The position numbers are program-made. From contig JAFGEZ010000035.1 of assembly GCA_016931295.1 (NCBI GenBank), forward strand, positions 26,998 to 90,997: a stretch of DNA of 64,000 bases, in the 5' to 3' direction. Shown here in pieces: positions 38,101 to 41,100 of the stretch. This DNA is from Candidatus Krumholzibacteriota bacterium (GTDB lineage Bacteria; Krumholzibacteriota; Krumholzibacteriia; Krumholzibacteriales; Krumholzibacteriaceae). Position 1 is the first letter of the stretch; every line of letters begins with the position of its first letter.

Positions 38101-41100
38101 AGCGATCGGACGTAGACGCCCGGATCGATGGCCAGGTCCTGCATCCGCACCCGATCGCCGAGGAGCGCGCCACCGCTGAACGGGCTCGACGGATCGACGG
38201 CGATGACGCCGATCTGCCGTTCGCGCGCCCGGAAGATCCTCGTCATGAGGTTGACGAGGGTGCTCTTCCCCGCCCCCGGTGGTCCGGTGAATCCAACGCG
38301 CCAGGCCCCGCTCGCCCGCGGATAGATACCGTCCATCACCGCTTCCGCTCCCGCCCCGCCGTTCTCGATGATCGAGATCGCGCGAGCGAGGGCGGCGGTC
38401 TTTCCGGCCGCGAACCGTTCGAGCAGCTCCTCCACGGCGGCGTTCCGTTCCATCCTAGTACTCGATCCCCTCGCGGGCCTGCACGCCCGCAGCGTAGTGG
38501 TGCTTGATCTCGCGCATCTCCGTCACGGTGTCGGCGATCCCGATCAGTTCCTCCGGGGCGTACCGCCCGGTGAGCACGAGCTCCATCGAGGGCGGCCGAT
38601 CCGCGGCCAGCGCGACGACCTTCTCCACGGGCACGAGGCCGAAAGAGCAGGCGACGTTGATCTCGTCGAGGACGAGCATGTCGATCGTTCCCTCGCGTAC
38701 GAGCGCTTCGGCCCGCTCCCAGCCGCGCGCGGCGAGCTCGCGGTCGATCTCGGCCGGATCGTCCGGGTCGACGAACTCGTCCCGCCCGTACTGCTCGATC
38801 TCGAGGCCCGGCACGTGCTTTGCCGACGCGAGTTCGCCGTAGAGCCGCCCCTTCATGAACTGGACGACGACGATCCGCCAGTTGTGCCCGGCGGCGCGCA
38901 TCGCGAGCCCGATCGCCGCGGTCGTCTTCCCCTTCCCGTCACCCGTGTACAACTGCACCGTACCCCGCCGATCCTTCATCGTTCCCCCCCGTCGCCATCT
39001 CGAAACGACAGCATATTATTCCTGCAACCTGCTACTCTGTAAATACATGCCGGATCAATACGTGCGCACCGCCGAACGTCAGACCTCGCTCGGCACGCGT
39101 ACGTACGGAAGGCTGACGAGAAACGTCGCGCCCTCGCCCTCCCCGCTCGATACCGTGATGGATCCCCCGTGGTCCTTGATGATCCGGTGGGCGAACGCGA
39201 GTCCGAGCCCCGAACCGTTCTCCTTCGTCGTGAAGAACGGCGTGAATATCCTCGCCATCTCGGCATCGGGTATGCCGACGCCGGTGTCCGTGATCTCTAT
39301 GAAGATCCGGTCCTCGACGGCCCAGGTTTTCACGCGGACCGTTCCGCCGCCCTCGATGGCCTCGATGGAGTTCTGCAGGAGATTGAGAAAGACCTCGTGC
39401 ATCTTGACGACGTCGATCATGGCGCGTGGCAAGGAGGGCGAGAGGCTCTTGAGGAGCACGATCCCCCGTTCCTCGAGGTCGTTCTGTATGAGCGCGATGT
39501 TGTCCTCGATGACGCGGTTGATGTCGCTCTTCTCGAGCTTGAGCTTGCTCACCCGCGACTGGAGATTCTCGAGGTACTGCTCGAGGCGAAGCGCCTCGTT
39601 GATGATGATGTCGAGCTTGTCGCGATCCGCCCCCGAGAGAGTCGACGAATGCTGCAGGTTGCGCGCGAATCCGCCGATGGAGACGAGCGGGTTGCGTATC
39701 TCGTGGATCACCGAGGAGGTCAGCTCCCCGGAGATCGCGAGCCGCTCGGCTTTCATCATCCGTTCCTCGTTCGCCTTGAGCTTCCGGTAGGTCGCCTTCA
39801 GGCTCTCGACGTTCTTCGTGAGCGATTCCTTGAGCTGCGCCGCCCGGAGCGACGTGGTCGCGTGACTGACCACCAGCTCGAGCAGGTGCGCGTCCTCGGC
39901 GGTGATCTCCTGGCCGGTGAAGATGTTGTCGACGATCAGCAGGCCGAGGCTGTCCTCGACCGTCGCGATCGGACACGTGCAGAAGTTCTCGAGGCCGAGG
40001 ATGCCGGCCACCTCGAGGTCCGCCTCGGAGGAGAGATCGTCCTTCCGGATGAACCGCACCTCGTGCATGCCCTTCACGATCACGCCCTCGTCGCTGCCGA
40101 TCGGTATCGCGAGACTCGACGTGATCTTCGTGAGAGGGCTGTTCCGCAGGTAGTGGAGTTTCTGGCCCTTGGAAACCAGTTTCTCGAGCGAGGCCTCCTC
40201 GTCCTTGTCGAGTATGCGCCAGATCGCCCCGGCCTCCTCGGGCGAGGACGGTCCCAGCGCGTAGCGCCCGCGGAGGACGTCGTACTCGGGCCCCCGGAGA
40301 AAGACGAAGGCCCTGTTGAACCCGAGCCCCTCGCGCGCGGTGATGACGGTGAGGATGGCGAGGATGATATCCTCTTCCTTGTCGAGGCGGGCGATGATCC
40401 TGCTCACCTCGCCGAGGAGGTTCATCAGCTTGGAGCGACGGATCACCTCCATGTAGAGATCTTCGACCTTGTTGGAGTACCGGGAGGAACGGATCAGCGC
40501 GTCCTCGAGGGTCTCCAGGAGGGTGATGTCGACCCACCGGCGGCCCTTCATCCGCTTCTTGAGCTGCTTGAAGAAGGGGCACTTGAAGCAGCACTGGATG
40601 AGCTTCTCCTCGAGCCGCGGGAAGACGCGTCCGTGGCACCGGTGCCCCGTCACTTCCCAGCACGGCGAGTGCGTCTGCCCGTAGGCGGCGCACTCCTTCT
40701 TGTCACAGCCGAGAAACTCCCAGCAGTTGTTTTCTCTCGAGCCCGTATCCCCGTTTAAATCAGTCATATCAACGAACGAGGCTATCACAGCCCCGCCGGC
40801 CGGGTAAAGGGAAAAGGGTGCAGGGGGCGCCCGGCGGCTGCGATCGATGTTGCTGCGCCGGCCGGATAACCGACCGATTCAGCGGTTGCCGGCGATCAGC
40901 GCGTCCGGTGCTTTATCAGGCTCCACGACGCCCCGTCGGTCGCCGTCAGGCAATGGTTGGGGGCTCCCGGTGTCGGCAGGCACCCGGTCCCCGGGGGTTC
41001 GCTTTCCGCCGGACAGGGATTCAGGGCGTCGAACACCACCCACGTCCCCGGGTCGTCCGCCCTCCTGCCGAAGGAACGGTCGTTTTCCGCCGCGCGGGCG

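What the first reader, a model, noticed from the sequence alone, without database searches (positions are those of the whole stretch)
39079..40788. Orphan GAF histidine kinase with a 9-cysteine N-terminal module and atypically low GC
The kinase lacks TM segments. It starts with NCWEFLGCDKKECAAYGQTHSPCWEVTGHRCHGRVFPRLEEKLIQCCFKCPFF (C-x5-C-x4-C-x9-C-x7-C-H ... CC-x2-C). That spacing suggests a metal or Fe-S/redox sensing cluster placed in front of a GAF domain. No response regulator is adjacent. The gene is visibly AT-richer than its neighbours, suggesting acquisition. It sits between the ECF-sigma-associated surface-protein genes and the B12 mutase operon. The start codon is ambiguous (GTG at 40788 or ATG at 40767, neither with a strong RBS).
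Basis: seen in the sequence. Interest (0 to 1): 0.5.

Follow-up and report, generated by a model that had tools for sequence, protein, structure and literature searches.

The report
Orphan kinase with two-CW cysteine sensor
This is a native, phylum-wide conserved cytoplasmic sensor kinase of Krumholzibacteriota. Its cysteine-rich front end is a divergent copy of the "two-CW" domain, a widespread signalling module that has a database name but no known cofactor, structure or function. The gene was not horizontally acquired.

Summary
The ORF is real. It encodes a soluble kinase with four parts: a Cys module, a helical linker, a GAF domain and a HisKA/HATPase_c core.

- The module has 8 cysteines, not 9.
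- The His after Cys5 is not conserved.
- The start is the ATG at 40767 (562 aa).
- The "low GC = acquisition" idea fails. GC3 is 0.895 against a window mean of 0.867, and more than 116 full-length orthologues (60-91% identity) exist in Krumholzibacteriota.
- In 10 of 11 other loci the gene sits in the same block: LTD, kinase, CobO, MeaB, acyl-CoA mutase, B12-binding subunit.

All 8 Cys are at least 97% conserved. The module is a divergent member of NCBIfam NF045718 (two_CW_domain): 26.4 bits, below the cutoff of 35, but 63 bits against a family HMM built here. A profile of the module found 457 clusters, and 93 of 96 multidomain hits carry NF045718. Their partner domains are kinase, HAMP, PAS, GGDEF, MCP and HD-GYP. 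The domain has no Pfam model, no PDB relative and no paper in the searched library.

No response regulator lies in the 64-kb window or within 10 kb in six orthologous loci.

The most likely mechanism is inferred, not shown: a thiolate-bound metal centre, with Fe-S favoured over Zn, senses redox state or a gas and gates autophosphorylation.

The parts
39079..40767 (-). Sensor histidine kinase CDS, 562 aa from the ATG at 40767. The alternative GTG at 40788 would give 569 aa. Residue numbers in this report use the 569-aa reading unless stated otherwise.
   Evidence: ORF. The closest orthologue, P0007 (91% identity, 562 aa), starts MADFNEDTGSRDNNCW, which matches the ATG reading. The ATG aligns with the called starts in three orthologous loci. 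GC3 is 0.895.
40555..40728 (-). Divergent two-CW domain (residues 21-78). It has 8 Cys at 22, 28, 33, 43, 51, 66, 67 and 70, with CW motifs at 22-23 and 43-44.
   Evidence: NF045718 match at E 6.5e-6 and 26.4 bits, cutoff 35. It scores 63 bits against a family HMM built without this protein or its orthologues, with 7 Cys in register. Cys conservation is at least 97%. AF2 pLDDT is 80.7.
40384..40563 (-). Helical linker (residues 76-135), starting with the conserved GRRW-D tail. It is the most conserved segment of the protein.
   Evidence: Mean column identity is 0.876 across 116 orthologues. AF2 predicts long helices here, with low monomer confidence. The GRR-x-x-D tail recurs in 34-35% identical kinases from other phyla.
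39784..40383 (-). GAF domain (about residues 136-335). It contains Cys270 and Cys272 in the motif FCTCP.
   Evidence: The Pfam GAF hit is sub-threshold (E 0.019). All top Foldseek PDB hits are GAF domains: 3oov, 5w10 and the PDE2/5/6 GAFs. The homologue P0137 has significant Pfam GAF hits.
39562..39729 (-). HisKA (DHp) domain, residues 354-409. The phospho-acceptor is His362 in the motif SSVIHEIRNPL.
   Evidence: Pfam PF00512, E 7e-9. His362 is invariant in orthologues. H-box sequence.
39103..39414 (-). HATPase_c catalytic domain, residues 459-562.
   Evidence: Pfam PF02518, E 1.3e-25.
40779..40808 (-). Candidate promoter of the kinase gene. A TTTAC box lies at 40808-40804 and a TAGCCT box (TAnnTT-like) at 40784-40779, 11 nt before the ATG. 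The GTG at 40788 lies between the two boxes, 1 nt upstream of the TAnnTT-like box.
   Evidence: The boxes align in four loci as CTTT[AG]C ... TA[GA][CA][CT]T. Reading them as a Bacteroidota-type -33/-7 promoter is inference from general knowledge, not tested here.
39015..39043 (-). Sigma-70-like promoter match (TTTACA-17-AATAAT) in the AT-rich spacer between the kinase stop codon and cobO.
   Evidence: Consensus scan, 10 of 12 positions. TTGACA-like boxes occur at the equivalent place in L002 and L004.
40896..41531 (-). Upstream neighbour: a probably secreted lamin-tail-domain (LTD) protein. It is always adjacent to the kinase in orthologous loci.
   Evidence: Pfam LTD, E 1.6e-17. It is adjacent wherever upstream flank exists, in 10 loci.
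35363..38979 (-). Downstream conserved block: ATP:corrinoid adenosyltransferase CobO/BtuR (38455-38979), MeaB GTPase (37470-38453), acyl-CoA mutase large subunit (about 35795-37471) and B12-binding small subunit (35363-35770).
   Evidence: Pfam and NCBIfam hits. Synteny.

Best explanation
Shown:
- The gene encodes a native, soluble, phylum-conserved orphan sensor histidine kinase of a Krumholzibacteriota bacterium.
- Its architecture is two-CW domain, conserved helical linker, GAF, HisKA (His362), HATPase_c.
- The N-terminal module is a divergent, 8-Cys member of the two-CW domain family (NCBIfam NF045718). This roughly 55-residue input domain has seven near-invariant Cys: CW-x4-C-x4-CPAY-x5-CW-x3-GTxC-x13-17-C-x2-C. 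It occurs alone, in tandem, or fused to kinase, HAMP/PAS, GGDEF, MCP and HD-GYP modules.

Inferred:
- The thiolates hold a metal centre. I favour one or two Fe-S clusters over Zn2. The eighth Cys in this subfamily would give two four-ligand sites.
- The oxidation, nitrosylation or loss of that centre changes the packing of the module against the adjoining highly conserved helices.
- The change is passed through the GAF domain to the DHp helices and switches autophosphorylation of His362.
- The phosphoryl group goes to a response regulator encoded elsewhere in the genome.
- The gene has its own promoter-like boxes and is fixed at the head of an AdoCbl-dependent acyl-CoA mutase block. One plausible output is therefore the coordination of that O2/redox-sensitive cobalamin pathway with cellular redox state.
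For: Identity and architecture.

The module is a real conserved domain:
- All 8 Cys are at least 97% conserved in 116 orthologues.
- AF2 gives pLDDT 80.7.

Family membership:
- NF045718 E 6.5e-6.
- An exhaustive profile search found 457 representative clusters. Of 96 multidomain hits, 93 match NF045718.
- The module scores 63 bits against an independent family HMM, with the Cys in register.

It is a sensory input domain:
- Partner domains among the 96 hits are HisKA 43, HAMP 25, PAS 24, GGDEF 14, REC 14, GAF 14, MCPsignal 12 and HD-GYP 5.
- 46 of 148 hits are stand-alone proteins of 160 aa or less.
- Tandem copies occur.

A ligand-like Cys pattern: 159 of about 168 complete copies keep all 7 Cys, and only Cys5 is ever replaced.

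An anoxic-lineage bias consistent with an O2-labile cofactor:
- Canonical copies lie in Thermodesulfovibrionia, Sulfobium, Desulfobulbales and subsurface Thermoleophilia MAGs.
- Krumholzibacteria are described from anoxic or oxygen-limited settings (PMC7914226).

Native origin and conserved context.

Orphan status: plus no PF00072 within 10 kb in six loci.
Against: - No cofactor has been shown for any two-CW domain. No paper was found, and there is no solved structure or Pfam model.
- The Cys spacing matches no classical Fe-S motif. A CxxC placed just before a helix, together with a beta-hairpin, is equally typical of zinc ribbons and treble clefs.
- The model coordinates could not be inspected, so the Cys groupings are not known.
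- The link to the B12 block is adjacency only. One locus has an unrelated gene inserted between the kinase and cobO. A 34% identical kinase of the same architecture sits in an unrelated context.
- No cobalamin riboswitch and no sigma-54 site ties the genes together.
- The module scores below the NCBIfam curated cutoff.
Confidence: 0.5

Rival explanations
1. The two-CW module is a structural or thiol-switch zinc domain, with Zn2 bound by 7-8 Cys. Either it only scaffolds dimerisation and positions the linker helices, or it works as an oxidant-triggered zinc-release switch of the Hsp33 or RsrA type. No Fe-S cluster is involved.
For: - The AF2 model is mostly loops, with a beta-hairpin and a CxxC just before a helix. 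That arrangement is typical of zinc ribbon or treble-clef sites.
- There is no CxxCxxC...CP ferredoxin-type spacing.
- Eight conserved Cys in this subfamily fit two Cys4 zinc sites.
Against: - The domain is used repeatedly as an input module of kinases, MCPs and c-di-GMP enzymes, and also as a stand-alone protein. That is unusual for a purely structural zinc knot.
- Its distribution is biased towards anaerobic and subsurface lineages.
- The canonical family has 7 rather than 8 Cys. That leaves one site with three Cys, as in several labile Fe-S sensors. This comparison comes from general knowledge and was not tested here.
Confidence: 0.3
2. The kinase is a dedicated regulator of the adjacent cobalamin-dependent mutase operon, and it senses a pathway-specific signal rather than general redox state. 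The signal could be a corrinoid or cobalt, an acyl-CoA bound by the GAF domain, or the state of the adenosyltransferase or MeaB.
For: - The block LTD, kinase, CobO, MeaB, mutase, B12-binding subunit, thiolase, 3HCDH is kept in 10 of 11 other loci, across 60-77% identity, while the genes upstream of LTD vary.
- GAF domains commonly bind small metabolites (PDB neighbours).
Against: - A promoter-like site lies in front of cobO, separate from the candidate boxes in front of the kinase gene.
- L099 has an unrelated gene inserted between the kinase and cobO.
- No regulator gene lies in the block.
- There is no cobalamin riboswitch.
- A distant kinase of the same architecture, P0137, lies in a context without B12 genes.
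- Two-CW domains occur in hundreds of unrelated signalling proteins.
Confidence: 0.15
3. This is the first reader's reading: an AT-richer, horizontally acquired orphan kinase.
For: Gene GC is 0.624, at the 0.6th percentile of 1710-nt windows.
Against: - GC3 is 0.895, above the window mean of 0.867. The deficit lies in codon position 2.
- Three of the 45 listed ORFs have equal or lower GC.
- More than 116 orthologues exist within one phylum.
- Synteny is conserved in 10 of 11 loci.
Confidence: 0.03

Closest known systems
NCBIfam NF045718 'two-CW domain-containing protein' (domain model)
   Same: - Both CW motifs are present, and all seven family Cys are in register.
- A profile of this module retrieves NF045718 proteins almost exclusively, 93 of 96.
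- It is used in the same way, as a cytoplasmic input module of signalling proteins.
   Different: - It scores 26.4 bits, below the curated cutoff of 35.
- It has an extra conserved Cys (CC-x2-C).
- It reads TGHRC instead of AGT[HF]C, and it lacks the QG motif.
- The window copy reads CAAY instead of CPAY.
- It has a conserved GRRW-D tail that runs into a highly conserved helix.
- The family itself has no described cofactor, structure or function.
Fe-S cluster sensor kinases and regulators (NreB of Staphylococcus; FNR; WhiB-like proteins; NsrR)
   Same: This is a functional analogy only, drawn from general knowledge. In each case a cytoplasmic Cys-ligated cluster acts as an O2, NO or redox input to a transcriptional or two-component output.
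   Different: - There is no detectable sequence or fold relationship: no Pfam or PDB hit.
- NreB places its 4 Cys inside a PAS domain.
- The cofactor of two-CW is unknown.
AtoS/ZraS-type (NtrB-like) histidine kinase cores
   Same: The best NCBIfam matches of the transmitter half (residues 338-564) are AtoS at 213 bits and ZraS at 194 bits. The H-box is HEIRNPL.
   Different: - The scores are far below the equivalog cutoffs of 646 and 479.
- The sensor region is different.
- No NtrC-type regulator or AAA+ domain lies in the window.
- No sigma-54 promoter match lies nearby.
Cytoplasmic GAF-containing sensor kinases (for example the DosS/DosT class; the GAF of Geobacter MCP, PDB 3oov)
   Same: The GAF fold lies directly upstream of the DHp helix, and the kinase is soluble.
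   Different: - Sequence identity to any solved GAF is only 10-18%.
- The ligand is unknown.
- The GAF is preceded by a metal-thiolate module, not by a second GAF or a PAS domain.

Membership tests
two-CW domain (NCBIfam NF045718) | The curated HMM score reaches the family cutoff of 35 bits. | tested here: not met
   26.4 bits, E 6.5e-6, residues 21-78 aligned to model positions 2-79 of 80.
two-CW domain (NCBIfam NF045718) | Two Cys-Trp motifs and the seven conserved Cys are in register. | tested here: met
   The alignment with 39 family members shows C1-C7 and both W aligned. The module scores 63 bits against an HMM of 190 family domain copies that excludes this protein and its orthologues.
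two-CW domain (NCBIfam NF045718) | Reciprocity: a profile of the module retrieves recognised family members. | tested here: met
   The search found 457 clusters at E <= 1e-3. Of 96 multidomain hits, 93 match NF045718, with a best E-value of 1e-62.
two-CW domain (NCBIfam NF045718) | The secondary motifs CPAY and GTxC are present. | tested here: inconclusive
   The window has CAAY and GHRC. Its orthologues have CPAY or CPAH, and GHRC or GHTC. Family frequencies are P 0.75, T 0.85 and G 0.81.
GAF domain (Pfam PF01590 clan) | The Pfam HMM score is above the gathering threshold. | tested here: not met
   15.9 bits against 22.4, E 0.019.
GAF domain (Pfam PF01590 clan) | GAF fold. | tested here: met
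   In the AF2 model of residues 8-340, the GAF part has pLDDT 72-92. The top 50 Foldseek PDB hits are almost all GAF domains, with TM 0.70-0.76 to stand-alone GAFs. The 34% identical homologue P0137 has significant PF01590 and PF13185 hits.
Class I sensor histidine kinase (HisKA + HATPase_c) | A phospho-acceptor His in a HisKA H-box and a GHKL ATPase domain. | tested here: met
   PF00512 E 7e-9 and PF02518 E 1.3e-25. His362 is invariant.
AtoS / ZraS equivalogs | A full-length equivalog score above the cutoff. | tested here: not met
   213 against 646 and 194 against 479 bits. Only the transmitter half aligns.
Fe-S cluster-binding sensor domain (functional class) | Bound Fe-S cluster, shown by Fe and sulfide content and by UV-vis or EPR signature. 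| not testable with these tools
   Only indirect evidence is available: 7-8 invariant Cys and a bias towards anaerobic lineages.
Classical two-component operon (kinase with adjacent cognate regulator) | A receiver-domain gene lies next to the kinase. | tested here: not met
   No REC hit in the 64-kb window. No PF00072 within 10 kb in L001, L002, L004, L098, L099 or L100.

The most novel reading that the evidence does not exclude
The two-CW domain is an unrecognised class of polynuclear metal-thiolate sensor module, most likely Fe-S, with a fold absent from the PDB. In Krumholzibacteriota, an 8-Cys variant of it drives a phylum-wide orphan kinase. That kinase couples cellular redox or O2 status to expression or activity of the adjacent adenosylcobalamin-dependent acyl-CoA mutase block.
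Probability: 0.2. Interest if true: 0.65.

Novelty: new variant of a known kind. Interest (0 to 1): 0.4.

Why it matters
The two-CW domain is a common input module of kinases, chemoreceptors and c-di-GMP enzymes in anaerobic and subsurface bacteria. A profile of this one subfamily alone found 457 clusters at 50% identity. Even so, the domain has no Pfam entry, no structure, no identified cofactor and no paper in the searched library.

The Krumholzibacteriota kinase is a clean, single-copy-looking, soluble example. It has 8 conserved Cys, a very conserved transmission helix and a fixed genomic position next to a cobalamin pathway. That makes it a convenient entry point for finding out what the domain binds and senses. 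If the cofactor is an Fe-S cluster, this would add a new sensor class to bacterial redox signalling.

As it stands, the finding is a well-defined uncharacterised domain in an otherwise ordinary kinase. It is not a new kind of system.

Tried and rejected
- Horizontal transfer is rejected on codon-position GC, on orthologue breadth and on synteny.
- The GTG at 40788 as start is rejected in favour of the ATG at 40767.
- Literature: 'two-CW' and its variants, NF045718, and combinations of Cys-rich, Fe-S and kinase terms gave nothing relevant.
- Pfam on the module and on four canonical two-CW domains gave no hit even at E <= 10.
- PDB searches by sequence and by profile gave only noise.
- The third word-indexed protein search, with the family alignment, returned only 22 small proteins and little annotation.
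- The genome scan with the 40-sequence alignment failed for lack of a conserved stretch. It was redone with a 12-sequence canonical subset, so the taxonomic picture covers only the RCW[QL][IVT]AGT[HF] subgroup.
- The metagenome scan with the kinase gave only 5 loci.
- Contexts of stand-alone two-CW proteins share no theme: RND efflux with VWA, a molybdo-dehydrogenase with cytochrome c7, and a DGR cassette.
- Rfam found no riboswitch in the window, cobalamin or otherwise. It found only two tRNAs.
- Sigma-54 -24/-12 consensus matches were fewer than chance, and none lies in the relevant spacers.
- No receiver or NtrC AAA+ domain was found in the window.
- No second two-CW domain or kinase was found in the window.
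- The intergenic spacers are too divergent for any structured-RNA inference.
- Model coordinates were not retrievable, so Cys-Cys geometry could not be measured.
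Full report
**1. Observation**

The ORF 39079..40788 (-) exists and translates as quoted. Pfam finds HisKA (residues 354-409, E 7e-9) and HATPase_c (459-562, E 1.3e-25). It gives only a sub-threshold GAF hit (148-312, 15.9 bits against a cutoff of 22.4).

The protein has no membrane segment. The highest 19-residue hydropathy mean is 1.25.

The Cys-rich stretch has the stated spacing, but it holds eight cysteines, not nine. They are at 22, 28, 33, 43, 51, 66, 67 and 70. Two more cysteines (270, 272) lie in the GAF region.

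**2. GC and origin**

- Gene GC is 0.624 against 0.660 for the window, which puts it at the 0.6th percentile of 1710-nt windows.
- Per gene this is only about 1.5 sd below the mean (0.662, sd 0.025, 45 ORFs). Three of the 45 listed ORFs are as low or lower.
- GC3 is 0.895, above the window mean of 0.867 (sd 0.032). GC2 is 0.386. The deficit therefore reflects an Ile/Leu/Lys/Glu-rich composition, not foreign codon usage.
- A full-length search returned 703 proteins at E <= 1e-30. The best 120 include more than 116 full-length orthologue clusters at 60-91% identity and 95-99% coverage. Nearly all named ones are Krumholzibacteria or Krumholzibacteriota MAGs.

The window therefore most likely comes from that phylum, and the gene is vertically inherited. 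The acquisition hypothesis is rejected.

**3. Start codon**

- The closest orthologue (P0007, 91% identity, 562 aa) begins MADFNEDTGSRDNNCW. This corresponds to the ATG at 40767.
- In 78 of 116 orthologues the first CW Cys is at position 13-16. With the ATG start it would be at position 15 here.
- The ATG aligns with the called starts in three orthologous loci.
- The GTG at 40788 lies between two short boxes shared by the four loci, 1 nt upstream of the second: CTTT[AG]C, then about 20 nt, then TAnnTT, which ends 11 nt before the ATG. These boxes look like a Bacteroidota-type -33/-7 promoter. That reading is inference, not a test.

**4. What the N-terminal module is**

All eight Cys are at least 97% conserved across 116 orthologues. 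His49 is 99% conserved, whereas the 'C-H' histidine His52 is conserved in only 2%.

Scanned alone, the module matches exactly one curated model, NCBIfam NF045718 'two_CW_domain'. The match has E 6.5e-6 and 26.4 bits, below the cutoff of 35. There is no Pfam hit and no PDB sequence hit.

An exhaustive HMMER search of 1.84 billion representatives, using a 5-sequence profile of the module, found 457 clusters at E <= 1e-3.
- Of the 148 new proteins among the listed hits, 46 are stand-alone proteins of 160 aa or less. The others carry the module at the N-terminus, internally, at the C-terminus or in tandem.
- Of 96 multidomain hits, 93 match NF045718, with a best E-value of 1e-62.
- Their partner domains are HisKA 43, HATPase_c 41, HAMP 25, PAS 24, GGDEF 14, receiver 14, GAF 14, MCP signalling 12 and HD-GYP 5.

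The family pattern is CW-x4-C-x4(-7)-CPAY-x5-CW-x3-GTxC-x13-17-C-x2-C. Of about 168 complete copies, 159 keep all seven Cys. Only Cys5 is ever substituted, in 7 cases.

A family HMM built from 190 copies, excluding this protein and its orthologues, scores the window module at 63 bits end to end, with the seven Cys in register.

The module is therefore a divergent two-CW domain. It differs from the canonical form in these ways:
- It has an eighth conserved Cys (CC-x2-C).
- It reads GHRC in place of GT[HF]C.
- It lacks the QG motif.
- It has a conserved GRRW-D tail.

Kinases with the same architecture and the same tail occur at 34-35% identity in Candidatus Edwardsbacteria (P0131) and in an unclassified bacterium (P0137).

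**5. Structure**

AF2 on a 40-sequence family alignment gives a compact model with pLDDT 80.7 and pTM 0.63. It has a short helix at the first CW, a beta-hairpin around Cys5, and helices after the CxxC.

AF2 of residues 8-340 gives a mean pLDDT of 68.7, with 72-92 in the GAF part. It shows long helices for residues 76-135 followed by an alpha/beta domain. That domain's top Foldseek hits are almost all GAF domains: 3oov, 5w10, the PDE2/5/6 GAFs and phytochrome GAFs. TM is 0.70-0.76 to stand-alone GAFs. The GAF assignment is confirmed.

The linker (residues 76-135) is the most conserved part of the protein, with mean identity 0.876.

**6. Context**

Pfam confirms the neighbours.
- Upstream of the kinase gene, at higher coordinates on the minus strand: LTD (40896-41531), WD40, DUF6249, and a divergent ECF sigma with a zf-HC2 anti-sigma.
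- Downstream: CobO/BtuR adenosyltransferase, MeaB, an acyl-CoA mutase large subunit, a B12-binding small subunit, then (thiolase) and 3-hydroxyacyl-CoA dehydrogenase.

NCBIfam places the mutase only at the level of the acyl-CoA mutase subfamily.

The block is conserved.
- The order LTD, kinase, CobO, MeaB, mutase, B12-binding subunit, thiolase, 3HCDH is found on one strand in all six long-contig orthologue loci: L001, L002, L004, L098, L099 and L100 (60-77% identity).
- It is also found in four of five metagenome contigs as far as their length allows. The fifth, L095, ends 635 nt after the kinase.
- The genes upstream of LTD vary: GatCAB, ECF/WD40, or catalase/GT87.
- In L099 an unrelated FG-GAP gene is inserted between the kinase and cobO.

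A sigma-70-like match (TTTACA-17-AATAAT) lies in the AT-rich 99-nt spacer before cobO. TTGACA-like boxes lie at the same place in L002 and L004. The kinase and the B12 genes therefore probably have separate promoters.

No cobalamin riboswitch and no sigma-54 site is present.

The 34% identical kinase P0137 has an unrelated context. The B12 association is therefore specific to this phylum.

**7. Orphan status**

No receiver or NtrC-type AAA+ domain is found in any six-frame ORF of the window. No PF00072 gene lies within 10 kb in the six long loci. The window contains no second kinase or two-CW domain.

The transmitter half resembles AtoS and ZraS most closely, but it scores far below the equivalog cutoffs.

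**8. Mechanism**

The architecture and the conservation are shown. The rest of this section is inferred.

Three observations point to a sensory metal-thiolate centre: the seven or eight invariant Cys, the use of the domain as an input module in hundreds of signalling proteins, and the occurrence of stand-alone and tandem copies.

I favour an Fe-S cluster, at about 0.5.
- The canonical subgroup is concentrated in anaerobic or subsurface lineages: Thermodesulfovibrionia, Candidatus Sulfobium, Desulfobulbales, and deep-subsurface Thermoleophilia and Gaiellales. It often has several paralogues per genome.
- Krumholzibacteria inhabit anoxic to oxygen-limited settings (PMC7914226).

A Zn2 site, either structural or acting as a thiol switch, is the main rival at about 0.3. 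It fits the hairpin plus CxxC-helix geometry equally well.

The signal would pass through the very conserved helices (76-135) and the GAF domain to His362. The cognate regulator is encoded elsewhere.

Control of the neighbouring adenosylcobalamin mutase block is a plausible output, but it is supported only by adjacency.

**9. Comparison and novelty**

The domain is already named by NCBIfam. Two-CW kinases, including ones with GAF domains, exist in several phyla. This is not a new kind of system.

It is a distinct 8-Cys variant that falls below the curated cutoff, so it is annotated only as 'ATP-binding protein' or 'hypothetical protein'. The family as a whole has no Pfam model, no structure, no known cofactor and no literature in the searched library.

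Interest is moderate. It lies in the uncharacterised domain rather than in this particular gene.

Noticed in passing
window 39015-39043 (-): A sigma-70-like promoter match (TTTACA-17-AATAAT, 10 of 12) lies in a conspicuously AT-rich 99-nt spacer between the kinase stop codon and cobO. L002 and L004 have AATTGACAAAAT boxes at the equivalent place.
   Followed up: partly
window 40779-40808 (-): Short boxes are shared by four loci upstream of the kinase ATG: CTTT[AG]C, about 20 nt, then TAnnTT. They resemble a Bacteroidota-type -33/-7 promoter. The transcript would have a very short leader and no Shine-Dalgarno sequence.
   Followed up: partly
window 39973-39981 (-), residues 270-272: Two further cysteines lie in the GAF domain in the motif FCTCP. 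They are 98% and 75% conserved within the phylum. The 34-35% identical kinases of other phyla lack them (FVVVP and FALVP).
   Followed up: partly
window 40384-40563 (-), residues 76-135: The helical linker between the two-CW and GAF domains is the most conserved part of the protein, with mean identity 0.876. It is more conserved than the catalytic domain (0.583). This hints at a partner-binding or signal-transmission role.
   Followed up: no
window 29366-33052: A cluster on the opposite strand holds a carboxyltransferase (29366-30919) and a second acyl-CoA mutase large subunit (30937-32604). A glyoxalase/epimerase-like gene probably lies at about 32648-33052, inferred from the orthologous loci and not checked in the window. 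The same arrangement occurs in L001, L004, L098, L099 and L100, so the conserved block spans about 12 kb. The substrates of the two mutases were not determined. The thiolase and 3HCDH beside the first mutase would fit an isobutyryl-CoA or 2-hydroxyisobutyryl-CoA mutase as well as methylmalonyl-CoA mutase.
   Followed up: partly
window 43290-44945: A DUF6249 membrane protein lies next to a divergent ECF sigma (43771-44436) and a zf-HC2 anti-sigma (44433-44945, overlapping the sigma gene by 4 nt). The same trio lies upstream of LTD in L099. L098 has a sigma fragment and DUF6249 at the same place.
   Followed up: no
L010:1830-6198, L011, L012: A 65-aa stand-alone two-CW protein (P0276) sits about 500 nt downstream of a diversity-generating-retroelement-like cassette: an FGE-sulfatase-fold target, an RVT_1 reverse transcriptase and bAvd. 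P0276 is recorded on 17 contigs; three loci were examined and all show this arrangement.
   Followed up: no
P0001 and P0125 (both from a JGI contig of 11,318 nt); P0005, P0006: One orthologue appears split into a 152-aa N-terminal piece with an aberrant tail and a 406-aa C-terminal piece, probably on the same contig. This could be a frameshift or an assembly error. P0005 and P0006 carry fragments of the linker fused to unrelated sequence, so they are probably chimeric contigs.
   Followed up: no
L099:11793-12731: In one orthologous locus a gene for an FG-GAP / Por_Secre_tail (T9SS-type sorting domain) protein is inserted between the kinase and cobO. The adjacency therefore tolerates interruption.
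   Followed up: no
window 39032-40758, both strands: Long ORFs overlap the kinase gene in other frames: 39169..40758 (+), 529 aa, and 39032..40693 (-), 553 aa. They are Arg/Gly/Pro-rich artefacts of high GC. Only the kinase frame has homologues; GC3 of the overlapping frames was not compared.
   Followed up: yes
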